Shown one piece after another: positions 38,635 to 55,545 of a stretch of 64,000 nt of DNA. The notes under the pieces are model-generated. The model was not told where the DNA came from, ran no database searches, and saw only the letters and a program-made list of their open reading frames with translations. Numbering within the stretch: position 1 is the stretch's first letter; each line of letters opens with the position of its first letter. The DNA comes from a virus (lineage: Duplodnaviria > Caudoviricetes). Location of the stretch: IMG/VR virus record IMGVR_UViG_3300021255_002065, positions 32,001 to 96,000 of that record; one strand, written 5' to 3'. The position numbers were made by a program, and so were the translations under genes.

Positions 38635-38814
38635 TTGCAACCGAATAAGAAACGTGGTCACAGAGGAATCTTGGCTGATGATTCACTTGTATATGAAGTA
38701 TCTGCAAATAAGTATTATTCCATCACGCCACGATATGAAATCACCATCACATATATGACGAAGATTCCAGAATGTATTAAGAATATTATGAAATTAAGAA
38801 AGGTAGATGATTGA
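38635..38814 (+). pseudogene. Orphaned duplicate 3' end of the RusA-like gene
   Basis: Translates LQPNKKRGHRGILADDSLVYEVSANKYYSITPRYEITITYMTKIPECIKNIMKLRKVDD*, homologous to the C-terminus of 36761-37360; no RBS. Confidence 0.85.
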
Positions 38815-40408
38815 TATGCCACGTGATGAATACAAAGATTGGATAGCACGAAATGGTGGTCCGAGTGATGAAGATTATGAGACCACTATGGATACAATTG
38901 GTAATACAAAAGATTTATATAAATCTTCACTTGGTAGATTTCAAAAGGGAATGAAGAAAGCGAAAAGTACCAAATCTATTATTGGTATGGCTTCTCGTAA
39001 TACCTTTGATTTCCCTGTGTTTATTTCCAAGAGTGTACCTCTTGATTATGCAACTGCAACAACAATGTTATTGGAACAATTGTATGCGGCATATGTACAG
39101 ATGGCTGTATCTCAGAATCCATATGTTGATGCAAAGAGTGTTGAATGTGGTGGTCTATTAGCCAAGTTCAATACCAACATCACAAAGTATGTTGAATATG
39201 TTGCATTGACAGACACAGAATATCAACACGATGCTTGTCATAATGAAATCTATACGGAAGATGCAGAATTCATATTTGATATGATTGATGTATCTGATGA
39301 AGATGCAGAAGGTATTCTACAAGAAATGGATTATGAACCATTATCTGAATTCGATGACTTCTTCCAAGAAGGCGGCGGCGCCGGTGGTGGTGCTGGTGGT
39401 GGTGCCGGAGCCGGAGCAGGTGCTGGGGCTCCCGCTATTCCAGTTATGCAGGCAAGAAACATACAAGCTCGTCAGGATATTCAAAATGTCGATGCTCGCG
39501 GAAATCGTGTGGATTATGATGCACATGGGAATATTGTCGGACGTCATCGTGATACTCCTTTTGAGCAATATAACAGGGACGTATTCCGTCGTCGTCTTAA
39601 GAACAGAGCTGATTCCGAAAAAGCTGTTGCCGATGCTGAAATTGCTGCACGTGATTTGAAGAATTACAACAAACATGAACGTGAGAACACAGAAGGGCAT
39701 CGTATGAAGATGATGAATCGTTCTCCTGAAATATTAAAAGAGGAAGACATGAGAAAGATGAATTCCATGAAACCTTTATTGATGAAACTTCAGATGAGAG
39801 TGACTCGTCCAGGTCAGCCAGATGATCCACGTGAATTTGTAATCGGTGTACACTGTCATGCTCGTTTGATTGAACCATCCACATTGCCAGATGTTGTCAA
39901 GTTCCCATTGAAAGAGATGAATGCAATTGCTCGTCGTGCAAAATGGAAAGCTGGCGAATTGAAATTCATGAGAGATATCGTATTCCAGATTAAAGAAAGA
40001 AAACAAACCGCTGTCGATGCAAAGGATCCAAAACGCAAATGGTATCGTCGTTTATATGAATTAGCACATTCTAAAGGTGATGCAAATGTGTCTGGGGCTG
40101 TATCTGGAAATGGTACAACTGGTCTAATTCCGAATGCAACGATTATGATTACAAATGGAGATGTGGAAAGTATTAAATCTCAAACCAAACTTGATGTATT
40201 AAAACCATCATTGGCAAAGAGATTGTGTAATGAATTATTCCTCATTTCATTTGTGGTAATTGATCAAGATGCAGAATCAATCAAACTTTATATTCCTGAA
40301 TTATATAAAGATTGGGAAATCCATTCACTTGCAAGTGTTGAAAAACAGCTTGCTGAATTATCTACTGCAGGTTCTAAGACAAGAGACCTGTTCAAATTGA
40401 TTAAGTAA
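38807..40408 (+). CDS. Virion structural protein (probable head protein)
   Basis: 533-aa ORF; acidic stretch ending FFQE followed by a Gly/Ala linker. Confidence 0.55.
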   Translation: MIDMPRDEYKDWIARNGGPSDEDYETTMDTIGNTKDLYKSSLGRFQKGMKKAKSTKSIIGMASRNTFDFPVFISKSVPLDYATATTMLLEQLYAAYVQMAVSQNPYVDAKSVECGGLLAKFNTNITKYVEYVALTDTEYQHDACHNEIYTEDAEFIFDMIDVSDEDAEGILQEMDYEPLSEFDDFFQEGGGAGGGAGGGAGAGAGAGAPAIPVMQARNIQARQDIQNVDARGNRVDYDAHGNIVGRHRDTPFEQYNRDVFRRRLKNRADSEKAVADAEIAARDLKNYNKHERENTEGHRMKMMNRSPEILKEEDMRKMNSMKPLLMKLQMRVTRPGQPDDPREFVIGVHCHARLIEPSTLPDVVKFPLKEMNAIARRAKWKAGELKFMRDIVFQIKERKQTAVDAKDPKRKWYRRLYELAHSKGDANVSGAVSGNGTTGLIPNATIMITNGDVESIKSQTKLDVLKPSLAKRLCNELFLISFVVIDQDAESIKLYIPELYKDWEIHSLASVEKQLAELSTAGSKTRDLFKLIK

Positions 40409-41612: not shown

Positions 41613-41632
41613 GAGGGCCCATATGGGCCCTC
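41613..41632 (+). terminator. Palindromic terminator
   Basis: GAGGGCCCATATGGGCCCTC followed by a T-rich tract. Confidence 0.7.
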
Positions 41633-41651: not shown

Positions 41652-41687
41652 TATCTATATATAATTAATATGATATAGAAATATATC
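41652..41687 (+). promoter_or_regulatory. Putative phage early promoter
   Basis: TATATATAATTAATATGATATAGAAATATATC, matches 5315-5350. Confidence 0.6.
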
Positions 41688-41783
41688 TATAATATTTCAT
41701 CCTTATGATCAACTCATAAGAACCTAAGTTGAATGCATATACACATAGGTCGATCATGTAGGATTCCAAAAGGAGGTAATCTT

Positions 41784-42311
41784 ATGAGAAGAATGTTTAG
41801 AGAATGCAGAGAGACCAGAGACGTTGAACGTCGCTGGAGCGAAAGACTGGAAGCAGCATCCAAATTTACTCAGTCTGAAGAGTTCAAATTATCAGAGGGA
41901 ATGTCCCCTGAGGAAAGAGCCAAATATGAAAGAATGGCGAGAGAACACCTGGGTATCCCGCAGGATGCTGAAGTAGACTGGTATGTGGCTGGCAAAATAG
42001 CAAAAGAAATTCTCGAAATCAAGCGAGATCAAAAACTTGGCAAAGGGAACATCCTCTTTGGAATCGGGAAGAAAAGCGATGAGGAAATCAAGGAAATCCT
42101 CGAAGCGAGGAAGCCTGAAATGCCTAAATTAAGAGAGGTTGAAAAGTCCCTCTCTAACGAAGGCGTACTTAAGGCTGAAACCCAACCGCAGCAGTCTCAG
42201 CAGTCTTATTCGGACAAATACCAGGCTGCAATGCAGGCAGCCCAGCAATTGGCATCTTCTGGTTACTATACACTGGAAGATGCCGTTCGCATTGTAATGG
42301 CAAATCTCTAA
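41784..42311 (+). CDS. Early hypothetical protein, C-terminal domain shared with next gene
   Basis: AAGGAGGT RBS; EVEKxLSNEGVL..KYxAAMQAAQxLAxSGYYTLE..IVMANL. Confidence 0.75.
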   Translation: MRRMFRECRETRDVERRWSERLEAASKFTQSEEFKLSEGMSPEERAKYERMAREHLGIPQDAEVDWYVAGKIAKEILEIKRDQKLGKGNILFGIGKKSDEEIKEILEARKPEMPKLREVEKSLSNEGVLKAETQPQQSQQSYSDKYQAAMQAAQQLASSGYYTLEDAVRIVMANL

Positions 42312-42835
42312 AACAAGCGACCTGAGTAAGTCATTAAACTGCTCAATCATATACAAATAAGTCCAGCTCATGACTTGAGAAACCGAGCGTAATTAAAGGA
42401 GGAAATCATTATGTTTGAATTCGGTAATTTTGAAGAAATCCGCGAAATAGACGAAATAGATGAACTCGATTCCAATACTTCTAATGGATACAAGTATACG
42501 AGTGCTGAAGTATGGAAGATGGGAAGAGCTGCTATTGAAAAGCTTTTTGAAGCCAACAAAGATATCTTATTCCCAGAGGTTGAAAAAGACCTCTCTAACG
42601 AAGGGGTATTGAGAGCTGAAACCAAGGCACAGGCTCAGGCACAGCAGCAATCTTACGATGAAAAGTATAGAGCTGCAATGCAGGCAGCTCAGGAGTTGGC
42701 AGCCTCTGGCTATTATACACTGGAACAGGCAATCCAGATTGTAATGGCGAATCTCTAACAGTAAGCGACCTGAGTAAGTCGTTAAAACTGCTCAATCATA
42801 AACATAAGTCCAGCTCATGACTTGAGAAACCGAGC
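42135..42835 (+). repeat. Two ~255-bp direct repeats (42135-42388 and ~42577-42835) covering gene 3' half plus intergenic pseudoknots
   Basis: Near-identical AAGCGACCTGAGTAAGTC..AAACTGCTCAATCAT..AAGTCCAGCTCATGACTTGAGAAACCGAGC in both copies. Confidence 0.9.
42411..42758 (+). CDS. Early hypothetical protein, paralogue of 41784-42311
   Basis: AAGGAGG RBS; shared C-terminal ~60 aa. Confidence 0.75.
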   Translation: MFEFGNFEEIREIDEIDELDSNTSNGYKYTSAEVWKMGRAAIEKLFEANKDILFPEVEKDLSNEGVLRAETKAQAQAQQQSYDEKYRAAMQAAQELAASGYYTLEQAIQIVMANL

Positions 42836-42857
42836 ATACCCTAAGGAGGTAATTATT

Positions 42858-43190
42858 ATGAAAAATATTGTTCAATTTTTGCAGGCAGTCGAAATCGCTG
42901 ATATTATCAGCAAAGAGCTTCAGAATGACTCCAGATATCTTGCTGATTATATCCTGGAAGCTGCAAAAGAATCCGGGTATTATATCTGGTCTCAGTCAAT
43001 GGAGGTTGCTGAATCCGCAGTAAAATTATCAATTCCGGTACTGAAATACGTACCTGAACAAGAGTGTGATGCTTCAGTTATCTATAAAATCCAGGCTGCA
43101 TTTGTGATCAACAATATCAAACAGTTGGACGAGATGAAGACTGCAGAAAGAAAGGCTCATCAAGAGCCAACTTTCATGTATTTCATCTAA
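42858..43190 (+). CDS. Early hypothetical protein
   Basis: AAGGAGGT RBS before MKNIVQ. Confidence 0.7.
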   Translation: MKNIVQFLQAVEIADIISKELQNDSRYLADYILEAAKESGYYIWSQSMEVAESAVKLSIPVLKYVPEQECDASVIYKIQAAFVINNIKQLDEMKTAERKAHQEPTFMYFI

Positions 43191-43303
43191 CAGAACATCC
43201 CTGCTGAAAAGCAGGGAGGTGAGTATATGAATTATCGTATATTGACCTCTCTGCTTTTTTCTTTTCTTGTACACACATATTGTTTAATTGAGGGGGTGAT
43301 ACA

Positions 43304-43711
43304 ATGATATTGTATCAAGCAATACAAACAAGTGCAATGATGTTATATTACTACTACTTGAGTTATAAACGGCTTCCATTACACTTAGACCAAGATGTGT
43401 TAAATCAATTTACATCACACATCATACAATTGTTCAAATGGAAATTCCCAACAATGTCATTGACAACTGATGAATTCAATGATCCGAATTTCATATTATT
43501 TGATGAACCATTTGATGAAGTATATCAATCAGATACTCGAGAGAACATGTATTCTTCTATGTTGCATGATTTAATTGAATTTCCATTAAAGCATTCGCTT
43601 ATCATAACAGATGATTATACCATACTACAAATACTACCGATTCCATTTGATAGTTTGGATATCACTCATGGTATGATAATAAACTTCTTCACTCCAATAT
43701 TGGATAGATAA
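43304..43711 (+). CDS. Hypothetical protein
   Basis: GAGGGGG RBS, 135-aa ORF. Confidence 0.55.
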   Translation: MILYQAIQTSAMMLYYYYLSYKRLPLHLDQDVLNQFTSHIIQLFKWKFPTMSLTTDEFNDPNFILFDEPFDEVYQSDTRENMYSSMLHDLIEFPLKHSLIITDDYTILQILPIPFDSLDITHGMIINFFTPILDR

Positions 43712-44466: not shown

Positions 44467-44525
44467 TCAGTATTACAACAATATCCCCCACATATGTGGG
44501 GGATGACTTTATGGAGGTTTTTATC

Positions 44526-45119: not shown

Positions 45120-45129
45120 TCACACAATG

Positions 45130-45157
45130 AACAACCGGGGCATATGCCCCGGTTGTT
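45130..45157. terminator. Bidirectional palindromic terminator
   Basis: AACAACCGGGGCATATGCCCCGGTTGTT between convergent genes. Confidence 0.75.
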
Positions 45158-45168
45158 TTTCTTGTGTA

Positions 45169-48100
45169 TTAAACGCCTTTTGCAAGACGTTGAATTTGTT
45201 TTGGAATATTGTTATCTGGGAAAGCATTCTGTGGTGTTTGTTTTGGAGTTGTGGTTTGTTGTTTGCTTGATAAGTTGTCCATTTTATCCAGAATCTGTTG
45301 TAACAGAATTTCCACTTGTTCCGCACGAACATTGTACGTATGATTCATCATACGATCTATCATTTCATCTTCTGCTTTAGAAGACTTTGTGACAATCACA
45401 TTCGTAGTAGATGCTCGTGGAAGTTCGTTTGCATCAATCATTAGATTGGATAGATCATTTGTACCGACAGTTTGCATGATCTTGCTTTGGTCAATCGGTG
45501 GAATCGGTATCTCGTCACCACTACCAGCAATTCGGTTGTTGATATCTTCCAAGATAGAAGAAGTCTTTCCAACAATATAGTCGCCAGGACAAGATTTATC
45601 GGTAAACATTCTATGATACGTCCACGAACCACTGGGATCTCCAGTATATTCGAATTTCTTAATACCATTACGCTTTGCAACGTCAACTGTTAATTGTTTT
45701 GCAGATTCCATTGCAGCATCGCTAATTTCCCAACTATTATCATGGTTTTTCTTGTATCTAGCATACGCTTCCGGTTTATTTGCGATTTCAATTGTAACAG
45801 CTTTTTCATCATTATCTGGACTGCTAGATGTGTTTGGTACATTACTTTCATCTACAAACAAGCCAATTTTACCACTACCATCAACACCATATGTTGCAGA
45901 AACACCGGATCTGCCATTTGGATTTGTTTTTGCAACATCTCCAGATGTTCCGGCAAATGTTTTCTTTAAGTCATCCAAGGTATCTCCATTACTATTTGCC
46001 CATGTATGCCATGTCATTTTTGTAATCGGACCAGGTCTTGGACCAGAGTGCATATCCTTTTCACCTTTACGTTCGGTAATCAGATATGAGGGATCAGCCA
46101 ATGAAGAATTGGTGAATCCAGATGTTCCACTGCTAGTTGTTAAAGAACCTGTGCTATTCACATTTGTTCCTGATGCTGATGTGGCACTTTGTGAATACTT
46201 ATTTGCATCCACATAGTTTGCAATACCACCGATAGATCCAAATGCATAACTGGAGAAGCCTTTTCCTTGACCACTGTTACGTGCAATACCTGTGTAGCCA
46301 TATGTTTTCGCTGCCCAGTTTACTGCAGTTGGATGTTTACCAACCTGATATCCCAAGATACCTCCCGCATTAGTCGATCCAGCATTAATAGTTCCAGCTA
46401 CCAATGAATTATTTGGACGAATGACATAGTTGTATTTTCCACCTAAGGTGTCAGCGTCATTCATAACTGTTGAAATGGATTCACCATTTAGAATACGATT
46501 TGCAACACTTTGTGTGATTTTAATTGCATCTGTGGATCCATAATTCCAACCTTTCAGTTTACCATCGATCATTCCATAACCTATTTCACCATGACCTGTT
46601 CCAGCGCCATAGTCTGGATGAACAAGGATGTCACCTGGTTGTACACCTTCTTTTCCAACATTTTCCCATGGTATTGCTTCGAAATCTTGTGTCTCTTGTC
46701 CATCTTTTGTGACAGGATATTGCATACCCTTTTCTGCACGATTTCTCAATCCAGAAGCACTGATGTTGTTTGTATCATAACCTAGATAATCAAATGCATA
46801 TTGATACATGCCAGTGCAATCGATACGACCATGCAATGTTTTACCATCTAATGTAATCGGAACGGTTTTGCTCATATTATAATCGTGATGACCTTCTACA
46901 TCTGTTTGATGGATTACTCTATTGAGTGTATTGATCCATGGACTGCTTGCCAAATCAGTTGTTACATTAGCACCAAACTGACCACCGTTTACGTCAACCA
47001 TACCACCATTTGTTCCCTTGAATCGTTCATATGCTTGTTGTGCACGTTCACGACGTTTAGATTGTGCTTGACCATTGCAACGTTCAAACTTATCCATCCA
47101 TGTATCTGAAGCTGCTTGTACAGAACCAACATTTTGCATTGCGGAGTGTGCTTTCTTCTCGCTATTCTCCAATTCACTTTTCATGAATTCCAATTGCATT
47201 GGTAAGTCAGCAATCGACTTTCCATCCGATGTGGCTTTAGATAACATATTTGTTCGACGACCACCAAGCCATTGTGCAATACCGTATGGATCATTTGTAC
47301 CAAGTGGCCAACTATGTGTAGAATCAAATTTGTCAACTAAATCTCTGTTGAAGCTATCGGGTTGTGAGTGGTCGGATCCACCTTGTACATAGACTGCCAT
47401 CGGATAATATCCGCTTTCTGCGGAAAGGTTACCCATGACACCAGCAGCTGCCATTTCAGAATATCCCAAGTTATTTCTCAGATAATTCCAAATAATACCC
47501 ATATTCGTATCTTGATTGGAATATGTGGAATATGCATCAGGACCACCAGTACCAGTTCCGATTTGTGCAGCATTCTCGGCATAATTGGTTTGTGCATTTG
47601 TTTCATAAGATGATGGTGCAACTGCATAACCATTTCTCAATAACCAGTTATAGACACCGACAGCAGTACCAACATTCTCTGCCAATCCTTTTGTGGTATA
47701 AACTTTCGGAGGTTGTAAGTCACCTTGATAGAAGTATGTGGAACCTTCAATCAAGTCAGTATTCAGTTTATCTGCATAACGATCACCAGGGCTAAGTGTA
47801 AACCCAGCTCTACCAGTTGTTTCTTTAAAGACAGATTCGCCACCCTTTTTCACAATATCATTACGATATGTTCCTGAAGTGGTTTTACCATCCATTGGAG
47901 TCATTCTCCAATATCTATCTTTAATATACTTCAATTGTTCTTCTACGCTATTTGCAGCAACACCTGATTCAACCCAGTTCATGATACCTTCCGCACGTTG
48001 ACCAGATCCATCATACGTTGTTGCAGTTAAGCTCTTTGTCCCAACCAGTTTTTTTGCACCATCTTCCCAGATACCTGTGGAAATGATTGTTGCAATTTCA

Positions 48101-51100
48101 GCTGGTGTCATACCAGCGGCCGCACCTTTTTGGATAAAGGCTGGCCATTCATCGGCATATTTCTTTGCATAAACGTCCCAAGTGTTACCACTTTCAAGCG
48201 AACCTTCAAATGGGATTTCACCTTGTACGGCTCCAGCAGATGCAGTAGGCTGATGGTACTTAAAGTATGTTAATGGATTAACCCATGAACCATCTTCATT
48301 ACCGTGTCCAGGTGGATTGATTTGATAGTGGACATGTTCTCCAGTAGACTTACCTGTTGAACCAATTACACCAAGCAACTGACCGGGAGTAATTGTATCA
48401 CCAATATTCACTGTTGGCTTATCACGCATATGTGCATAACGGTGGAAGTATCCGGCAGCATCTTCGAACTGTACGGAGTTGCCCCAACCACTATCGCTAG
48501 TTTGATCGTATGGAGAATTTGCATTTCCTTCATTCGCATATCGAACGTCAATTACTTTACCACCTGTAATTGCATGTAACTCAGATTTACCAGCTTGCAT
48601 AGTAGATGCAGGATATGTGAGGATGTCAACGCCTTGGTGTGATTCATCTGTGCTACCAGTACCAGTTTTGTCAGGAGTAGAACGTCTTGTATACCAACCA
48701 CCATTTTGGGAGAACGCATATTGTGTTGCACCAGTTGTATCACTTGCACCACTTGTTTGCCAGAAGAATTCATGAACTGGTGATTTGGATAATGTGGTAC
48801 CACCATCTTCAGTAATGTCTGTATCAAAGATGGTTGGCTGATATGCGTCCGTCCACATGACAGCACCGCCATCAGAAACAAACTTACCAGCGTATGGGTC
48901 ATTGTAAGAGGATTCTACGATACCACCGCCTTGACCGAGAGCAGCATTTAACATACCGCCACTCCATGTACCGGTCTCGGCATCGTATTCACCATAAATA
49001 GAAGACATACTACCTTCGGATGCATCTACCATACCATTGACTTTCATGGCATTCATGATGTTCGCATTGTTCTTAGCAACAGCATTCAGGTATTTACGTT
49101 TAATACTTTCATTTTCCCACATGGATTTTATCCGTGCTTCATAATGTTCATCTGTTTCTGTTGCAGCCTTTGGATTATTCTGACGAAGTAATTCATATGC
49201 TTGTGATGCATAACGTTCATATTCTTCATTACCAACTGCTTCACGAATTACCTTTTCAACACGTTTCTCTTCTGCTTCCTTCACTGATTCCTCTACTTCA
49301 GAATCTTCATTTGCAGAGAACATTTTCAGAATATTAGAGAAAATGCCAGTGAGTCCACTCATCGCATTCTTAATACGTTCGGAGAAACTATCACCTTCAA
49401 TTTTTGGTATGACACTCGGATTTGCATCAGCGGAGAGCTTTTGTTCTGTGCTGATATATCCTGTACTACCACCGGGTGGTGCTGTAATAGAAGTTGTTCC
49501 ACTAGTTGTTCCAAGTGAACCTGCCGTTCCAGCTGTATCTGCAATCTCTGAATTACCAGATGTACCAGATTCTAGATTCTGCAACAATGGATTTGCATCT
49601 TTAATCTTATTGAAAATCTTACTCCAGCTCCAGTTCTTACTATTGGAATACCATGAATCAAATGTCGGTGGTTGTGAAGAAGGATTCTTACTCATGTAAT
49701 CTTGTACATAATCTTTATACAAAGCTTCCAATGCTTCAGATGCAGAGTTTGCAAAGAATTCTTCAATGGATGGAGGATTCGACGATGGATTTTGCTGCAT
49801 ATACATTGCTAAATACTGTTGATACAATGGCTCAAGTACCCTGCGACGAGCAGCTGTTAATTGTGCTTTTGCAGTAGCTGCAGTAATTGTAACTTTATTG
49901 TGTGAATAAATAGATTGAATAGCAGCAGTCTTTGCAGTTTCTACTTCGCGTGGATCTTCCACTTGTCCATACTTATTTCTGTTTAATGTGTTTAATACAA
50001 ATTCCGCACGTTTATTTTTCAACCAAGCTTTGATTGCGGGAAGCACTTGATTTATATTAGATGCAGTAATCTTTGCATCATTCAATTGAGATGCAAGCCA
50101 ATTCCATTTATCACCCTTCCATGATACAGGATCACTCTGATTCCACATATTGTCAATTACTGTCTTTTCATCACTTGTTAATTCATCATAGAAATGTTTT
50201 GTGGTCGTTTTGGTAAATGTATAATAACCGGATGGTCCGGCACCATACAAATGATACCAAGCAGCATTTGCTCCACGAACATCTCCAGAACCATATAGAC
50301 CAACAACTGAAGAAGATGCCAATTCATTTGCAGAACGACGTTCTACTCGACCACTTAATGGATTGGATACATAAGCACCACCAGCATGGTCCGTACCAAC
50401 GACGTTGATGTAGTGTGTGTTTCCAGAACGTGTTCCGAATCCAGCACCACTACCAACAAGTGTAACAGGGTTATTTGGAGTTGCACGATTCAAAGATTGT
50501 GATGTCACACCACCGACCTGATATCCCATACCCATGGATGCAGCTGTATCAATAAATCCACCAACACTTGTACCACGAGAAGACGAATAACTACCAGAGG
50601 ATGCCATGCTACTTGCTAATGCACCAGCATTTACATTTCCACCACGTCTGTTTGCAGCATCCGCTAATGCAACAGGACCACATCCACGTTGACTCATATT
50701 CAGATAAGATCCATATCTACCTTGAGAATCACCAGAACCAAAGTAATCACGATAACCACTCGCTGATGTTGTCGTAACTGGTATTGTTGGGATTGTCACA
50801 GTTGTATTAGTATTCGTATTATTAGTAGGATCATTAGAAGTTTCATTGGCAACTGGTGTATTATCTTCTGCAATCTCAGAGGATGTTGTTGTGTCAGTAG
50901 CATCAGGATATAGTGATGAAATATAGAAAGGCTGTCCTGTTGTGAGATAAGATACCTGGTTTGCTTTCGATGTGACACCTTCAGCTTGATATGCCATGCC
51001 AGACGCCGATAAACCAATTGATGTTTGGAATAAGGCTGCACCAGCAGCAGTGGATCCGGCAGCGACTAATTGTAATGCATCAGCAGCAAGTTGTTGTCCA

Positions 51101-54100
51101 TAATAAGCTTGATTATTACCAATCGACAATTTTGTCAATGACTCAATCGATTCCAATGTCGGAACAACATCTGTTTTGAATGATGCATACATCGGAATGA
51201 ATACCTTAGATGCCATCATCATTTGTTTATTGATATGCTTGGTTACATTACCCAACATCATTTCTTGATATGCATTACTATTTTCCATCGACGGTTCTAC
51301 TGTTTCTTCTTGAACAGTTCTCGTCTTGTGTAATTCATTCCAAATCGCTTCTAAGAATGGACCAAATGTTTCGATTGGATTATATCGCTGATCCTCACTA
51401 TAGGTATCACCAGAACCACGGATAGAATCCATCGTACCACCAGTTGATGGAATAGGTGTTGCAATCGCATTCGATTGATCGGATTTCAATCCAGAAGCGG
51501 ATGCATCAGATTTGGTTTCTTTATTTTTACCAGTCAATGCACCAACCGACGAATCAATTTGTTCTTTTGCACCTTCTAGTGTTTCTTCTGAAGCATTAAA
51601 CATATCTGTTCCTGCTTGTTTAATCTTCTTACCGGCACTTCCCGTAAATGGCATTAAATCTATAACAGTACCAATACCTTCTAAGATTTTACCGAGAACC
51701 ATTTGTAGACCGCCAATTGCACCTTGTATGCCCCCTGCGATAATACCGAGAATATTTGCAACCTTTGTCAAGAGCCATGTCGCACCATCAATGAATTTTC
51801 CCAATGGTCCATCTGTCACATACCAATTGATCAACATTGTTGTCAGATTTAATAATGGATTGAGAATTGGCATTAATGCACCTATCAAAGAACCGACAGC
51901 TTGCAAAATAGGAGTTAATACTCCTTCTAATATATCACCGATGGATTCTACAATCGTTCCAATTGCTGTTAAAACAGGTCCGACAACATCCATGACAAGA
52001 TCCAATATCATGTTAATTGGTCCAACCAGCACATCGATTAATCCTGTTAGCACATTTAAAATGGGATCAAGTGCTCCTATGATTCCACCTAATAAATCAC
52101 CAACTAGATCAACCAATACATTTAGCACTGGCATTAACGAATCCACTAATTTAACAACTAAATTTGCAATATATTTAATGGAGTCACCGACGGCTTTTAA
52201 TAGCTTCTTAATGGTTCCTGTCAACTTCTTAAATGCTTTATTCAATGGCTTAACCGCAGTTGTCAATGTTTTTTGTACAAGATCCATGATGGCTTTCACA
52301 GCAGTTAATGATGCAATCGCAGTCAATATCATTTTACCGAAACCCTTTAAGATACTGCCGATTCCTTTTACAACCCTCAGTATACCTCCCAATGCTCCGA
52401 CGCCTCCGGACGCAGGTGCACCAATTGTTGGATCACTTGTTGTGGTTCCGTCTTCAGAATCACCTTTCTTCTTAAAGAATTTATTTTTGATATTTGAGAA
52501 GAAGCCGCCACCAGACCCTCCATTTGTGCCTGCTTTCACACCTTCTTTGGAACCCTTTTCGGAACCTTCACGTGTACCTTTCTCTGCAGCTTTTGCTAAT
52601 GCTTTTGCTTCTTTTTCAGCTCGTTTCTGTGCACGTCTCTCTTCTTTCTGTGCCTTCTTTGCTTCTGCACGTTTCTCACGTTCTTCTTTACGTTTTTCAC
52701 GTTCCTCTTGTGTTCCCCAGATTTGTGTCCATCCTTTTTTCACATCATTCATACCGGATTTCATTCCCTTTTTCACCAGATTCAATGCTGGTGTGAGAAC
52801 TTTCTGTCCGATAAATCTAAATGCCGCACCTAATTTCTTTTTAATCCATGCACCAATGACTCCAATTGCCGGAAGAATGTATTTGGAAATCGCACTACCG
52901 AGAGGGGATTTACTAAGAGCACCGTTCACTTTGTTCTTGATACTATTCTTCATGTTAGTACCCCACATGGTGAACATCTGGCTCAGTTTGTTACCCAATC
53001 CTTTATTCTTCATTTGAGAGGTGATACGTTTTAAGAATGGCAAATCACTTGCGAGATCACCATCTGAAGCTTGTGTTTGTGCCATCTTTGTTGCAGTATC
53101 AGAAATGATTTCATCTTCTTTGGAAGTTTCTTCTCCTGCTTTTTTGTCATCACCACGACCATAGATGTTATTTAAGATAGAAGGAATATTACCACTACCT
53201 GTTGTATTTTTCACATTAAGATGGTTAATAGCACTGATGATGCCTTCCAGTTTTCCAAACAAATTTGTTTCGAAATCCGCACTAATACCAGCAGTTTCTG
53301 TTTTGGAAACCTTGGTTGCATTAGACATCTTGGTTGCATCAATGTCTTCACGAATGATACCTGCTTTCGCCCTTTTGTCCTTTTCAACAATCTCGACATC
53401 TTTCTGCTGTTCTTCATTCTTCTTCAAGTTTTTGTCGGCTAGTTCTCCAGCCCAATCATTTGGATCTTTTACACTACCTCTCTTCAATTTACTTTTATTT
53501 GCTTCTTCATATTTTTTTTCTTGCTCTTTATATTCGTCCGTCTCTTTGATTCTAGCTATTTCAGCATCACGTCGTTCATTTATGTTAGTTTGTGCAGTTC
53601 TGACTTGAGCATTGTTTTTAAAAGAATTTATGATGTCTTCTTTCGTGAGGTTCTTACTTGCACGACCCATGGCTGCATCGTCATTTTTTCGTTTTATATC
53701 AGCTTCGGTTGCTGATTGTAATATTTTAAATACATCCGCCATGAATGTTCCCGGTGTTTCTGTAGACCCTGTAAAAATATTTGCTCCAGATTCTGGATTA
53801 TTAATGGCTAACCTTAATGAATTGAACCATGTATTGAAATCATCATCACCAGCCAATCCAAAATCCGGATTGGATGTGCATATAGATTTTATTGTTTCCC
53901 AATCAAAAATTTGTTGGAATTCAGTTGCATTTTTTACTTCAATCGGATCACCCATATATCTGATTAAAACTGCCGATGAGAATGCTTCCTGATAGTTCAG
54001 TGCCTTCGTCTTTATACGATGCTGCAGTTCAGATTCGATTTGCTGTCTCTTTTTCTCTCGCATTTGTTTTTTTGCTGTTACATCAAATGCTTTCCTTGTA

Positions 54101-55545
54101 TATGTTTGACCATTATTTGAAGCTTCTTGTTCCAATTTGGTTTGTTCCTCATTCCATGCGGCTTCGAGATCAGTATCATTTATTTTTCCAGCTTCTACAC
54201 CAGATCTCTTTTTCAAATCCTTATTGATATTGGCTTGATGATCTGTGCTATTAATCGCGGTAATATTAGAACTTAAGGCAGCATCTAATACACGTTCTTG
54301 TGAATTACGAGAACCATGTTGTGAAACATGACCATTCGCATGATCCCAAGCAACCCCTGTCATGGATTGTGCAATGACTTTCAAATATCCAGGAATGATT
54401 TCTGTGATGGATTGTCTGGTGATACCATCAAAGACAGCTTTGTCTCTGTTATATTCATTCTTGATTTCAGCTTGATATTCACCAACTGTACTAGATTTCA
54501 ATGTTAATCCTTTATTTAATGCTTCGGATAACATATCGCCGAAAAATGGAATCTTGCCCAATGCATCATTGAGTTTCTTATTTCCACCTAATAGCACATT
54601 GGAGATTGCATCACCAATCATATTATTGAAGCTGCTTCCAATTGTATTGAGTGAATTATTTGCAAACTTTTCAGAAAAATTGGTTTGTTTACCACCAATC
54701 AATTCTGTAAGAAAGTCGATACCACTACCAACAGCTGCTCCAACTTTACCAGTCTTCTTATCCTTTGTATCACTCAATAACATACTGATGATACCTGCTG
54801 GTGTTAATGCATCTTTTCCCATCGATAACATCTGTGCAACGATATTGTTTGTTGCAGCATCTTTCACATTGGATTTCATTTGGTTAAACCATGAACCCAA
54901 TGTCACACGTCCATGTGAATCAATTGCCGATTGATTCTGTGCTTTCATTTGTTCTTCTTCAATTTGTGTTTGGGTTTGTAATAACTTACCCAATGCATCA
55001 ATCTTTTCACCAATACCAATGATGGATTTGTTCATATTGTTTAATGATGTTACAATTTCACTTGCACGACCATCGATATGGGATACGATCTCAGCAGCAT
55101 TGATCATGGATGCTTCTGCTTGTTTTGCACCAATTTGGTACATTGCATTCACTTGTCCACGAGCAATGTCTTTCATGCTTTCTTCATCCGCAATTTTCGA
55201 ACTCGGAGATTCTTGTTCTCCGTCACCATCACCTTCACCAACTTGGAAACCGGCATCAAAATCAGAATCATTACCTCCGTTCAACAAACCATATTCATCA
55301 GATTCATCAGAACGTTGCATGAACCAATCTAATGCTTTCTTACCACCATTTTGTTTGATATCCGCAACAATATCAACTACTTTGGATTTTCCTTGGGTTA
55401 ATTGGTCACCGACTTCTTTTGCATCATTGATAAAGGTTGTGATGTTTTCAGTATAATCACTAAAATAATCCTTAGCAACTTCTTTACCAATATAAAGAAT
55501 CTGTCCGGGAATATTCGGAATGAAACTACTACCTTTTTTTGCCAT
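45169..55545 (-). CDS. Giant tape-measure-like tail protein with C39-like peptidase, M23 peptidase, tail lysozyme, NlpC/P60-like and amidase domains
   Basis: Amphipathic TMP repeats; GCGP..HY..NP (C39-like); HQGVD..YAHM..STGEHVHY (M23); AAGVMGNLSAES..GIAQW (phage tail lysozyme); IDCTG..GHGEI (NlpC/P60-like); WHT..SATY..IEIAN..HR..KSCPG (amidase_2). Confidence 0.85.
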   Translation of the reverse strand: MAKKGSSFIPNIPGQILYIGKEVAKDYFSDYTENITTFINDAKEVGDQLTQGKSKVVDIVADIKQNGGKKALDWFMQRSDESDEYGLLNGGNDSDFDAGFQVGEGDGDGEQESPSSKIADEESMKDIARGQVNAMYQIGAKQAEASMINAAEIVSHIDGRASEIVTSLNNMNKSIIGIGEKIDALGKLLQTQTQIEEEQMKAQNQSAIDSHGRVTLGSWFNQMKSNVKDAATNNIVAQMLSMGKDALTPAGIISMLLSDTKDKKTGKVGAAVGSGIDFLTELIGGKQTNFSEKFANNSLNTIGSSFNNMIGDAISNVLLGGNKKLNDALGKIPFFGDMLSEALNKGLTLKSSTVGEYQAEIKNEYNRDKAVFDGITRQSITEIIPGYLKVIAQSMTGVAWDHANGHVSQHGSRNSQERVLDAALSSNITAINSTDHQANINKDLKKRSGVEAGKINDTDLEAAWNEEQTKLEQEASNNGQTYTRKAFDVTAKKQMREKKRQQIESELQHRIKTKALNYQEAFSSAVLIRYMGDPIEVKNATEFQQIFDWETIKSICTSNPDFGLAGDDDFNTWFNSLRLAINNPESGANIFTGSTETPGTFMADVFKILQSATEADIKRKNDDAAMGRASKNLTKEDIINSFKNNAQVRTAQTNINERRDAEIARIKETDEYKEQEKKYEEANKSKLKRGSVKDPNDWAGELADKNLKKNEEQQKDVEIVEKDKRAKAGIIREDIDATKMSNATKVSKTETAGISADFETNLFGKLEGIISAINHLNVKNTTGSGNIPSILNNIYGRGDDKKAGEETSKEDEIISDTATKMAQTQASDGDLASDLPFLKRITSQMKNKGLGNKLSQMFTMWGTNMKNSIKNKVNGALSKSPLGSAISKYILPAIGVIGAWIKKKLGAAFRFIGQKVLTPALNLVKKGMKSGMNDVKKGWTQIWGTQEEREKRKEEREKRAEAKKAQKEERRAQKRAEKEAKALAKAAEKGTREGSEKGSKEGVKAGTNGGSGGGFFSNIKNKFFKKKGDSEDGTTTSDPTIGAPASGGVGALGGILRVVKGIGSILKGFGKMILTAIASLTAVKAIMDLVQKTLTTAVKPLNKAFKKLTGTIKKLLKAVGDSIKYIANLVVKLVDSLMPVLNVLVDLVGDLLGGIIGALDPILNVLTGLIDVLVGPINMILDLVMDVVGPVLTAIGTIVESIGDILEGVLTPILQAVGSLIGALMPILNPLLNLTTMLINWYVTDGPLGKFIDGATWLLTKVANILGIIAGGIQGAIGGLQMVLGKILEGIGTVIDLMPFTGSAGKKIKQAGTDMFNASEETLEGAKEQIDSSVGALTGKNKETKSDASASGLKSDQSNAIATPIPSTGGTMDSIRGSGDTYSEDQRYNPIETFGPFLEAIWNELHKTRTVQEETVEPSMENSNAYQEMMLGNVTKHINKQMMMASKVFIPMYASFKTDVVPTLESIESLTKLSIGNNQAYYGQQLAADALQLVAAGSTAAGAALFQTSIGLSASGMAYQAEGVTSKANQVSYLTTGQPFYISSLYPDATDTTTSSEIAEDNTPVANETSNDPTNNTNTNTTVTIPTIPVTTTSASGYRDYFGSGDSQGRYGSYLNMSQRGCGPVALADAANRRGGNVNAGALASSMASSGSYSSSRGTSVGGFIDTAASMGMGYQVGGVTSQSLNRATPNNPVTLVGSGAGFGTRSGNTHYINVVGTDHAGGAYVSNPLSGRVERRSANELASSSVVGLYGSGDVRGANAAWYHLYGAGPSGYYTFTKTTTKHFYDELTSDEKTVIDNMWNQSDPVSWKGDKWNWLASQLNDAKITASNINQVLPAIKAWLKNKRAEFVLNTLNRNKYGQVEDPREVETAKTAAIQSIYSHNKVTITAATAKAQLTAARRRVLEPLYQQYLAMYMQQNPSSNPPSIEEFFANSASEALEALYKDYVQDYMSKNPSSQPPTFDSWYSNSKNWSWSKIFNKIKDANPLLQNLESGTSGNSEIADTAGTAGSLGTTSGTTSITAPPGGSTGYISTEQKLSADANPSVIPKIEGDSFSERIKNAMSGLTGIFSNILKMFSANEDSEVEESVKEAEEKRVEKVIREAVGNEEYERYASQAYELLRQNNPKAATETDEHYEARIKSMWENESIKRKYLNAVAKNNANIMNAMKVNGMVDASEGSMSSIYGEYDAETGTWSGGMLNAALGQGGGIVESSYNDPYAGKFVSDGGAVMWTDAYQPTIFDTDITEDGGTTLSKSPVHEFFWQTSGASDTTGATQYAFSQNGGWYTRRSTPDKTGTGSTDESHQGVDILTYPASTMQAGKSELHAITGGKVIDVRYANEGNANSPYDQTSDSGWGNSVQFEDAAGYFHRYAHMRDKPTVNIGDTITPGQLLGVIGSTGKSTGEHVHYQINPPGHGNEDGSWVNPLTYFKYHQPTASAGAVQGEIPFEGSLESGNTWDVYAKKYADEWPAFIQKGAAAGMTPAEIATIISTGIWEDGAKKLVGTKSLTATTYDGSGQRAEGIMNWVESGVAANSVEEQLKYIKDRYWRMTPMDGKTTSGTYRNDIVKKGGESVFKETTGRAGFTLSPGDRYADKLNTDLIEGSTYFYQGDLQPPKVYTTKGLAENVGTAVGVYNWLLRNGYAVAPSSYETNAQTNYAENAAQIGTGTGGPDAYSTYSNQDTNMGIIWNYLRNNLGYSEMAAAGVMGNLSAESGYYPMAVYVQGGSDHSQPDSFNRDLVDKFDSTHSWPLGTNDPYGIAQWLGGRRTNMLSKATSDGKSIADLPMQLEFMKSELENSEKKAHSAMQNVGSVQAASDTWMDKFERCNGQAQSKRRERAQQAYERFKGTNGGMVDVNGGQFGANVTTDLASSPWINTLNRVIHQTDVEGHHDYNMSKTVPITLDGKTLHGRIDCTGMYQYAFDYLGYDTNNISASGLRNRAEKGMQYPVTKDGQETQDFEAIPWENVGKEGVQPGDILVHPDYGAGTGHGEIGYGMIDGKLKGWNYGSTDAIKITQSVANRILNGESISTVMNDADTLGGKYNYVIRPNNSLVAGTINAGSTNAGGILGYQVGKHPTAVNWAAKTYGYTGIARNSGQGKGFSSYAFGSIGGIANYVDANKYSQSATSASGTNVNSTGSLTTSSGTSGFTNSSLADPSYLITERKGEKDMHSGPRPGPITKMTWHTWANSNGDTLDDLKKTFAGTSGDVAKTNPNGRSGVSATYGVDGSGKIGLFVDESNVPNTSSSPDNDEKAVTIEIANKPEAYARYKKNHDNSWEISDAAMESAKQLTVDVAKRNGIKKFEYTGDPSGSWTYHRMFTDKSCPGDYIVGKTSSILEDINNRIAGSGDEIPIPPIDQSKIMQTVGTNDLSNLMIDANELPRASTTNVIVTKSSKAEDEMIDRMMNHTYNVRAEQVEILLQQILDKMDNLSSKQQTTTPKQTPQNAFPDNNIPKQIQRLAKGV

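What the first reader, a model, noticed from the sequence alone, without database searches (positions are those of the whole stretch)
41702..42835. H-type RNA pseudoknots in front of every cistron of an early operon
Seen: each intergenic repeat (42315-42388, 42763-42835) holds two tandem pseudoknots of the same architecture. The first is a (GC)GAC/GTC(GT) stem whose loop TGAGTA pairs with TGCTCA after an AAAC linker. The second is an AAGTC/GACTT stem whose loop GCTC pairs with GAGC after an AAAC linker. A third, sequence-unrelated one (CTTATG/CATAAG, loop TCAACT pairing AGTTGA, 41702-41732) lies in the leader. Different sequences with one fold suggests selection on structure. Known: type III antitoxins are short repeated pseudoknots, phage mimics of them exist, and Firmicutes degrade RNA 5'-3' by RNase J. 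Inference: exonuclease-blocking mRNA stabilisers or processed decoy RNAs against host defence.
Basis: partly seen in the sequence, partly recalled or inferred. Interest (0 to 1): 0.75.

Follow-up and report, generated by a model that had tools for sequence, protein, structure and literature searches.

The report
Widespread viral pseudoknot before capsid-assembly genes
The repeated intergenic element starts with a copy of a tiny, strongly conserved RNA pseudoknot found in hundreds of phages and in some RNA viruses, usually just after one gene's stop codon and before capsid-assembly genes; no RNA catalogue I searched lists it and its function is untested.

Summary
The two intergenic repeats are real. 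They arose with a ~447-bp tandem duplication, yet their core is 93% identical against 77% for the adjoining coding DNA.

- **Pseudoknot 1** (GAC-C-UGAGUA-A-GUC-RUUAAAC-UGCUCA) is confirmed. It belongs to a large viral RNA family absent from Rfam 15. I collected over 300 non-redundant copies from IMG/VR, about 90 from prokaryotic genomes and about 150 from named phages (S. aureus Phietavirus, Lactobacillus, B. megaterium Page). The loop/downstream helix covaries decisively.
- **Family context.** Copies are intergenic and co-oriented with genes. They peak 6-10 nt after the upstream stop codon, most often precede head-scaffolding genes, and also sit in phage tRNA arrays. They occur too in tombus-like +ssRNA viruses, between the polymerase and coat genes.
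- **Pseudoknot 2** has the same geometry but is lineage-specific, with one compensatory change.
- **Pseudoknot 3**, in the leader, is at chance level.
- **Claims not supported:** "every cistron" and "early operon".

Most likely function is a cis-acting mechanical barrier or stabiliser at the 5' boundary of a highly expressed unit. This is inferred, not shown. The decoy/antitoxin reading is unlikely.

This scan noted the same uncatalogued motif before on other DNA (e1-5161344, e1-5348254).

The parts
41613..41632 (+). Intrinsic-terminator-like hairpin (GAGGGCCC-ATAT-GGGCCCTC plus a T run) that ends the upstream structural-gene unit
41665..41693 (+). Sigma-70-like promoter (TTAATA-17-TATAAT); predicted transcript start at about 41699-41701
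   Evidence: consensus match only, not shown to be functional
41702..41732 (+). Leader hairpin CUUAUG/CAUAAG whose loop UCAACU could pair with AGUUGA. It is at chance level as a pseudoknot and lies 1-3 nt from the predicted 5' end.
41784..42311 (+). Gene A (175 aa, no family match); its C-terminal ~60 aa are paralogous to gene B
42317..42345 (+). Pseudoknot 1, copy 1. S1 GAC 42319-42321 / GUC 42330-42332; L1 C 42322; S2 UGAGUA 42323-42328 / UGCUCA 42340-42345; L3 AUUAAAC 42333-42339. GAC starts 7 nt after the stop codon.
   Evidence: E=1.5e-8
42359..42388 (+). Pseudoknot 2, copy 1. S1 AAGUC 42359-42363 / GACUU 42372-42376; L1 C 42364; loop AGCUCA 42365-42370; L3 GAGAAAC 42377-42383; GAGC 42385-42388 pairs with GCUC.
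42411..42758 (+). Gene B (115 aa), preceded by GGAGG at 42398-42402
42765..42794 (+). Pseudoknot 1, copy 2. S1 (GC)GAC 42765-42769 / GUC(GU) 42778-42782; S2 UGAGUA 42771-42776 / UGCUCA 42789-42794; L3 is one A longer. GAC starts 8 nt after the stop codon.
   Evidence: E=1.2e-6
42806..42835 (+). Pseudoknot 2, copy 2 (identical to copy 1)
42858..43190 (+). Gene C (110 aa), preceded by AAGGAGG at 42843-42849

Best explanation
Each intergenic repeat is a composite RNA leader.

Its first half is a bona fide copy of a roughly 27-nt H-type pseudoknot that is widespread in viruses. The parts are: S1 = (N)GAC/GUC(R); a single conserved C as loop 1; a 5-6-bp S2 between the hairpin loop and the hexamer after the linker; and a conserved linker RUUAAAM, probably lying in the S1 minor groove. 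The second half is a lineage-specific element of the same geometry.

The pair was copied with the 3' end of gene A when gene B arose, and has since been kept more constant than the coding DNA.

Inferred mechanism: the fold acts in cis, without a partner specific to one host, as a compact mechanical barrier at the 5' boundary of the downstream expression unit. It would stop 5'-to-3' decay (RNase J- or Xrn-type exonucleases, or 5'-end-dependent entry of endonucleases) and insulate the downstream ribosome-binding site. The cistrons behind it would then accumulate more message than those in front. In most phages those cistrons are the high-copy scaffold and capsid genes; here they are genes B and C.

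Shown: the structure, its conservation and its contexts. Inferred: the barrier/stabiliser function.
For: - It also hits 101 prokaryotic contigs, 89 of them with the unconstrained downstream signature.
- **Covariation.** S1's fourth pair is CG 66 / UG 29 / UA 27. With loop A12, partner 30 is U in 176 of 193; with G12 it is C in 87 of 107. Pair 13-29 is GC 50, AU 41, UA 5, CG 3. Fully compensated S2 variants exist.
- **Strand and place.** 245 of 314 copies are co-oriented with flanking ORFs against 23 opposite. The gap from stop codon to GAC is 4-14 nt in 83 of 133 and never 0-3.
- **Downstream genes.** About 30-35 of 76 downstream ORFs are head-scaffolding proteins. The order is portal/minor head, motif, scaffold, major capsid in S. 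aureus B166 and 37 and in B. megaterium poppyseed, a Page-type phage, where a terminator follows the capsid gene.
- **RNA viruses.** The same motif lies 8-15 nt after the RdRp stop and before the coat ORF of tombus-like viruses. This argues for a function that does not depend on one host's machinery.
- **Pattern of conservation.** S1 and the A-rich L3 are invariant while S2 varies freely. That is expected if an S1-L3 triplex is the load-bearing part.
- **In the window.** The element core is 93% identical between the duplicates against 77% for the coding DNA, and all differences fall in linkers.
Against: - No RNA data exist: no RNA run holding this phage was listed.
- The motif also occurs in hosts without a detectable RNase J.
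- In tRNA arrays it sits between tRNAs that need no stabiliser.
- A quarter of copies are followed by a U tract, which hints at other roles.
- The tight spacing after stop codons could mean it acts on the terminating ribosome instead.
Confidence: 0.4

Rival explanations
1. Termination-coupled control. The pseudoknot sits exactly where frameshift and readthrough stimulators sit, 5-9 nt past the codon in the A site. It would act on the ribosome finishing the upstream gene by pausing it, blocking post-termination sliding, or being melted by it. Downstream expression would then be coupled to, or uncoupled from, upstream translation.
For: - The distance from stop codon to GAC peaks sharply at 6-10 nt, never 0-3, in phages and RNA viruses alike.
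- It is 7 and 8 nt in the window.
- The architecture, a C in loop 1 plus an A-rich loop 3, resembles luteoviral frameshift pseudoknots (my own knowledge).
Against: - No slippery sequence is conserved upstream (columns 1-4).
- The in-frame continuation stops at once: TAA inside the loop in the window.
- Copies in tRNA arrays and after terminator hairpins have no upstream ribosome.
- The spacing is also what genome compaction would give if the fold must only escape melting by the terminating ribosome.
Confidence: 0.2
2. Processing signal ('punctuation'). The fold is recognised by a nearly universal endonuclease, such as RNase P or Z acting on a coaxial S2-S1 helix, or RNase Y or E cutting the adjacent AU-rich stretch. 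The cut separates upstream and downstream RNAs.
For: - In tRNA arrays the element lies 1-4 nt after one tRNA, and its S2 strand ends 3-5 nt before the next.
- AU- or U-rich flanks are common, with a U tract after S2 in 77 of 303.
- The host range spans Bacteria and DPANN archaea.
Against: - It also occurs in tombus-like RNA viruses, whose hosts are probably not prokaryotes: no Shine-Dalgarno sequence precedes the coat ORF.
- No CCA-like tail or T-loop mimic is present.
- Only one or two spacers per array carry it.
Confidence: 0.15
3. Attenuator or terminator. The S2 hairpin followed by a U run stops or pauses RNA polymerase, and S1/L3 tunes this.
For: 77 of 303 copies have at least 6 U in 8 right after S2, against 9 of 303 upstream. 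These are mostly Firmicutes prophages.
Against: - There is no U tract in the window copies, in tRNA arrays or in the RNA viruses.
- A terminator before the most needed late genes is counter-productive.
Confidence: 0.08
4. Small-ligand riboswitch aptamer of the size and topology of preQ1-I.
For: Compact H-type fold with an A-rich loop 3 and strongly conserved letters.
Against: - No Rfam riboswitch match, although matches with E-values up to 10 were listed.
- Loop 2 is a single variable base, and the ribosome-binding site is never part of the fold: its distance to the start codon ranges from 2 to about 250 nt.
- It is present between tRNAs and in RNA viruses.
Confidence: 0.05
5. Processed decoy or type III antitoxin mimic against host defence.
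For: It is a short pseudoknot repeated in the genome: five copies in 148 kb.
Against: - Copies are dispersed and 447 bp apart, not head-to-tail.
- Adjacent ORFs show no ToxN-like or other toxin family.
- There is no ToxI match in Rfam.
- The dominant context is the scaffold-gene leader.
Confidence: 0.03
6. DNA-level signal (promoter or operator), as annotated by BPROM in S. aureus phage B166.
For: A BPROM 'promoter' feature overlaps it. TTAGCA-18-TATTAT can be read in that phage.
Against: - Compensatory changes in S1 and S2 are an RNA signature.
- It is present in RNA viruses.
- The conserved letters fall in what would be the promoter spacer.
Confidence: 0.03

Closest known systems
Class 3 (plant-virus) exonuclease-resistant RNAs, xrRNA-D (Steckelberg et al. 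2018, PMC6299227; Gezelle et al. 2025, PMC12397905)
   Same: - A small viral stem-loop whose loop pairs with a 3' strand.
- Often found in the gap before the coat gene.
- Needs no protein partner.
- The element here occupies the same place in tombus-like viruses.
   Different: - Class 3 xrRNAs are 44-54 nt with P1, P2 and conserved L1 and L2B (..CGAGUUGCAAG.., table read).
- The element here is ~27 nt with GAC/GUC and UUAAA, and has no P2 or L2B.
- A ring topology is not evident, and resistance is untested.
preQ1-I riboswitch aptamer (Rfam RF00522)
   Same: Size (about 30 nt) and H-type topology with an A-rich third loop.
   Different: - No model match.
- No ligand-pocket loop 2 and no sequestered Shine-Dalgarno sequence.
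- It occurs in tRNA arrays and RNA viruses.
Luteoviral -1 frameshift pseudoknots (BWYV type) and the MuLV readthrough pseudoknot (my own knowledge)
   Same: A triplex-type H pseudoknot with a C in loop 1 and an A-rich loop 3, placed 5-9 nt past the codon being decoded.
   Different: It follows a genuine stop codon, with no slippery site and no extended frame.
Phage T4 gene 32 mRNA leader pseudoknot (my own knowledge)
   Same: An H-type pseudoknot of similar dimensions in a phage leader.
   Different: - The T4 pseudoknot nucleates binding of the phage's own single-stranded-DNA-binding protein.
- Its sequence is not conserved outside T-even phages, whereas this motif spans unrelated viruses.
Type III antitoxin RNAs (ToxI, CptI, TenpI)
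   Same: Short pseudoknotted RNA repeats found in phage and host conflicts.
   Different: - Antitoxins are tandem arrays next to a toxin gene and are cut by it.
- Here the copies are dispersed, lie in leaders of structural genes and have no toxin gene nearby.

Membership tests
Uncatalogued viral 'GAC..GUC-RUUAAAM' pseudoknot family (this report; scan notes e1-5161344, e1-5348254) | S1 GAC/GUC with a covarying fourth pair, a single C as loop 1, and the linker RUUAAAM | tested here: met
   Both window copies of pseudoknot 1 carry all invariant letters. Covariance model scores are E=1.5e-8 and 1.2e-6.
Uncatalogued viral 'GAC..GUC-RUUAAAM' pseudoknot family | The hexamer after the linker is complementary to the hairpin loop (S2) | tested here: met
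   UGAGUA/UGCUCA gives 6 pairs with one G-U. Family covariation is shown.
Uncatalogued viral 'GAC..GUC-RUUAAAM' pseudoknot family | Intergenic, on the coding strand, a few nt after the upstream stop codon | tested here: met
   7 and 8 nt after the stops of genes A and B. Family mode is 6-10 nt; 245 of 314 copies are co-oriented.
Same family, asked of pseudoknot 2 (42359-42388, 42806-42835) | The conserved S1 and L3 letters | tested here: not met
   S1 is AAGUC/GACUU and L3 is GAGAAAC. The model does not find it. Only the geometry, the loop-1 C and the AAAC end are shared. It works like a family member, but membership is unproven.
Type III toxin-antitoxin antitoxin RNA | A head-to-tail array of 34-45-nt repeats directly upstream of a ToxN/AbiQ-family gene | tested here: not met
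   Repeat spacing is 447 bp. No toxin family appears in the neighbours, and no Rfam ToxI match.
preQ1-I riboswitch (RF00522) | Match to the family model, and a ribosome-binding site or terminator coupled to P2 | tested here: not met
   No match among those listed with E-values up to 10. The ribosome-binding site lies 53-55 nt downstream of S2 in the window.
Class 3 xrRNA | P1-L1-P2-L2A/L2B with the conserved L1 and L2B sequence | tested here: not met
   Compared by eye with the published sequences. No Rfam hit on phage or RNA-virus copies.
Class 3 xrRNA | Halts Xrn1 or RNase J1 at the base of the fold without proteins | not testable with these tools
   Needs an in vitro degradation assay.
Recoding (frameshift/readthrough) stimulatory pseudoknot | A slippery heptamer, or a leaky stop followed by a long open frame | tested here: not met
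   The frame after TAA reads AAC AAG CGA CCU GAG UAA. Upstream columns are not conserved.
Intrinsic terminator | A hairpin directly followed by a U tract | tested here: not met
   The window copies are followed by AAUCAUA. A U tract is present in only 77 of 303 family members.

The most novel reading that the evidence does not exclude
A ~27-nt triplex pseudoknot is a portable, host-independent 'stop sign' for 5'-to-3' RNA decay. It would be a minimal exonuclease-resistant RNA, shared or convergently evolved by tailed dsDNA phages of many bacterial and archaeal phyla and by tombus-like +ssRNA viruses. Viruses would use it to carve a stable capsid/scaffold message out of a longer RNA. That would make it the first such element in prokaryotic viruses and the smallest known.
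Probability: 0.3. Interest if true: 0.9.

Novelty: new variant of a known kind. Interest (0 to 1): 0.72.

Why it matters
How tailed phages raise scaffold and capsid output more than ten-fold over the portal and terminase genes within one late operon is poorly understood. This motif marks exactly that junction in well-studied phages (the S. aureus phietaviruses 80 and phiETA, Lactobacillus KC5a, B. megaterium Page), so the question becomes testable with a 27-nt element.

Its presence in both dsDNA phages and +ssRNA viruses points to a self-contained physical function. If it blocks nucleases it would be a very small, portable RNA stabiliser for synthetic biology. At the least it is an abundant structured RNA family missing from Rfam.

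Tried and rejected
- **Rfam 15.** Scans of the window region, 20 viral loci, an S. aureus phage copy and an RNA-virus copy found nothing but tRNAs and noise.
- **Operon relatives.** BLASTN of the whole operon against 50,697 phage records gave no match. Gene A has no homologue in IMG/VR or in the one related phage, so the leader pseudoknot could not be tested by comparison.
- **Folding energy.** Nested-fold z-scores are unremarkable at -0.2 to -1.5. This says little, because the program cannot model pseudoknots.
- **RNA-seq.** No RNA holder was listed.
- **RNase J co-occurrence.** 38 of 50 genomes pass the cut-off, with clear exceptions, so the motif is not exclusive to RNase J hosts.
- **Phylum sampling.** With the covariance model, 0 of 150 other genomes matched in each of the two phyla searched, those of L. 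salivarius and of the Novosphingobium MAG. The motif is too rare in cellular genomes for a host-range statistic.
- **Literature.** Searches by sequence strings and by topic found no description. Theta (HDV-like) ribozymes next to phage tRNAs (PMC10879173) were considered and rejected, because whole spacers holding the motif are only 30-35 nt. Pistol, hammerhead and twister ribozymes were considered from memory; no Rfam match appeared and the supposed core letters vary.
- **Generic descriptor.** A scan for non-canonical S1 variants did no better than reversed-sequence controls.
- **tRNA introns.** The short introns in the phage tRNA arrays are not copies of the motif.

Full report
**What is in the window.**
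- A terminator-like hairpin (41613-41632) and a sigma-70-like promoter (41665-41693) precede a same-strand run of small ORFs: gene A 41784-42311, gene B 42411-42758, gene C 42858-43190, and at least four more down to a terminator at 45129-45158.
- The last ~180 nt of gene A plus the following gap are duplicated about 447 nt downstream as the end of gene B plus its gap.
- The non-coding core (42315-42388 against 42763-42835) is 93% identical, while the adjoining coding DNA is 77% identical. Every difference in the core lies in a linker.
- The element precedes genes B and C only. A covariance-model search finds no further copy in front of the other cistrons.
- The upstream neighbour (38807-40405) matches a virion structural protein family. 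Genes A, B and C match nothing. 'Early operon' and 'every cistron' are therefore not supported.

**More copies in the same genome.**
- The window is bases 32001-96000 of a 148-kb IMG/VR virus record estimated to be 55% complete.
- A third full copy lies at C1:127192-127286 on the minus strand. There the stem of the second hairpin has changed on both sides (AAGUC/GACUU to AAGAC/GUCUU).
- Two further copies of the first half alone lie at C1:127535-127567 and C1:26626-26658. Each sits just after a terminator-like hairpin and before a ribosome-binding site.
- One related 137-kb phage contig carries one full composite copy.

**Pseudoknot 1 belongs to a large family.**
About 3 would be expected by my own estimate, made from an assumed collection size rather than from a tool.
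- It also hits 101 prokaryotic contigs. In 89 of them the hexamer after the pattern, which the search did not constrain, is NNGCUC-like.
- Hosts include Lactobacillaceae, Lachnospiraceae, Peptococcaceae, cyanobacteria, Patescibacteria, Planctomycetes, Nautiliaceae, Trueperaceae, Bacteroidota and DPANN archaea.
- BLAST of a 30-nt copy finds 154 named phage records: about 90 S. aureus siphophages (37, 52A, 80, phiETA, phiMR11, B166), Lactobacillus KC5a, Lj771 and phig1e, B. megaterium Page and Pony, Anoxybacillus A403, Arthrobacter Amigo-type phages, a Cylindrospermopsis phage and a crAss-like phage.
- No Rfam 15 family matches any copy. I found no paper describing it.
- Earlier notes of this scan (e1-5161344, e1-5348254) describe the same uncatalogued 'scaffold-leader' pseudoknot on other DNA. 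My evidence was gathered independently of those notes.

**The structure is real.**
- In 150 aligned copies the base before GAC pairs with the base after GUC: CG 66, UG 29, UA 27.
- A second scan asked only for loop variants with G at position 12. It returned 107 non-redundant copies. The partner position is C in 87 of them, whereas it is U in 176 of 193 copies with A12. The neighbouring pair is G-C 50, A-U 41, U-A 5, C-G 3.
- Individual variants are fully compensated: UGGAUA/UAUCCA, UAAACA/UGUUUA, UAAGCA/UGCUUA.
- S2 is therefore an RNA helix. Together with S1 it gives an H-type pseudoknot with a one-base loop 1 (an invariant C), a one-base loop 2 and a 6-7-nt loop 3 (RUUAAAM).
- S1 and loop 3 are invariant while S2 varies freely. 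This would suit an S1/loop-3 minor-groove triplex, which is an inference.

**Context across the family.**
- 245 of 314 non-redundant copies lie among same-strand ORFs, against 23 among opposite-strand ORFs.
- Where an upstream ORF of at least 100 codons can be assigned, its stop codon ends 4-14 nt before GAC in 83 of 133 cases. The mode is 6 and no case is 0-3. The window values are 7 and 8.
- Of 76 downstream ORFs, roughly 30-35 match head-scaffolding families.
- In S. aureus B166 and 37 and in B. megaterium poppyseed (a Page-type phage) the order is portal or minor-head gene, motif, scaffold gene, major capsid gene.
- In phage tRNA arrays the motif makes up a whole 30-35-nt spacer. It begins 1-4 nt after one tRNA, and its S2 strand ends 3-5 nt before the next.
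- 77 of 303 copies are followed by a U tract, against 9 of 303 upstream. The window copies are not.

**An unexpected extension to RNA viruses.**
- Many hits are 1.3-5.7-kb contigs with one long ORF ending 8-15 nt before the motif and a ~330-400-aa ORF 170-550 nt after it.
- The long ORF is a tombus-type RNA polymerase (RdRP_3, E=1e-83, in L074). The second ORF is a jelly-roll coat protein in L075, L230, L243 and L299.
- In these +ssRNA viruses the motif is the first element of a long conserved, uncatalogued gap before the coat gene, and no Shine-Dalgarno sequence is present.
- A function tied to one host's proteins is therefore unlikely.

**Pseudoknot 2 and the leader pseudoknot.**
- Pseudoknot 2 has the same register as pseudoknot 1: stem, C, six loop bases, one base, stem, seven bases ending AAAC, then the complement of the four central loop bases. 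Its letters differ in both stems, and the model does not see it.
- Its stem has one compensatory change, and its GCUC/GAGC pairing never varies in four copies. The nested alternative, UGCUC with GAGCA, is equally compatible.
- I rate pseudoknot 2 as plausible, lineage-specific and working like a family member. Membership is unproven.
- The leader pattern at 41702-41732 is one of four 6+6-bp patterns in the window, against about one in shuffles. It shares no family letters and cannot be tested by comparison. Its hairpin begins 1-3 nt after the predicted transcript start, so a plain 5'-terminal stabilising hairpin is as good a reading.

**Mechanism.**
- Shown: a conserved RNA pseudoknot placed just past an upstream unit's end and ahead of a unit needed in high copy number.
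- Against it: the fold lacks the ring of proven xrRNAs and differs from class 3 xrRNAs in sequence and parts. RNase J is absent from some host genomes. tRNAs need no such protection.
- The tight spacing after stop codons keeps a ribosome-linked role alive (about 20%). The tRNA-array placement keeps an endonuclease 'punctuation' role alive (about 15%).
- Terminator, riboswitch, decoy/antitoxin and DNA-level readings are each unlikely, for the reasons given under the rival explanations.

**Verdict.** The window holds two copies of a real, abundant, uncatalogued viral RNA motif whose function remains open.

Noticed in passing
L074, L075, L045, L230, L243, L299 and about 25 more small IMG/VR contigs (e.g. 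L075:2584-2902): Tombus-like +ssRNA virus contigs share a long conserved gap between the polymerase and coat genes. After the pseudoknot come the boxes CCAUGGGGU..CCAAAACGGUG..UUCCGUGCUAA..AAUGCCGAGAGACUGCACGG..GAUGUACAGUCC. No Rfam family matches. It could be a large structured subgenomic-RNA leader.
   Followed up: partly
L059, L005, L107, L109, L024 (phage tRNA arrays): ARAGORN predicts 12-61-nt insertions in the anticodon loops of many tRNAs in these arrays. One array holds a CUA-anticodon (amber suppressor) tRNA, which suggests stop-codon-recoded phages. The insertions are not copies of the motif.
   Followed up: partly
window 41613-41632, 44483-44504, 45129-45158; G000:C1 about 26.7 kb and 127.5 kb: The terminator-like hairpins of this phage share a palindromic core with a CATATG centre (GGGCCCATATGGGCCC, CCGGGGCATATGCCCCGG, CCCCCACATATGTGGGGG).
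   Followed up: no
window 43198-43307: A 7-bp hairpin (TCCCTGC..GCAGGGA) lies right after gene C, and its 3' arm runs into a GGAGG. A 26-codon hydrophobic ORF follows (43227-43307), whose stop overlaps the next start as ATGA.
   Followed up: no
window 41784-42758: Genes A and B share a ~60-aa C-terminal module (VEK.LSNEGVL.AET..YYTLE.A..IVMANL) behind unrelated N-termini, with a Q/A-rich helical look. Given the motif's usual partner genes, they may be scaffold-like or internal head proteins. No family match.
   Followed up: partly
L098, L122, L149 (other viral loci): Two or three canonical copies of the pseudoknot occur in tandem or close together in other viruses, so tandem arrangement is a recurring theme and not peculiar to this phage.
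   Followed up: partly
L248, minus strand, about 4359: A variant has S1 GCAC/GUGC and linker UAUAAAC but the canonical loop and S2. The family is therefore wider than the fixed-letter patterns used here.
   Followed up: no
window 45169-55545 (minus strand): A 3458-aa ORF converges on the operon's terminator. It is presumably a giant virion or tail protein and was not analysed.
   Followed up: no
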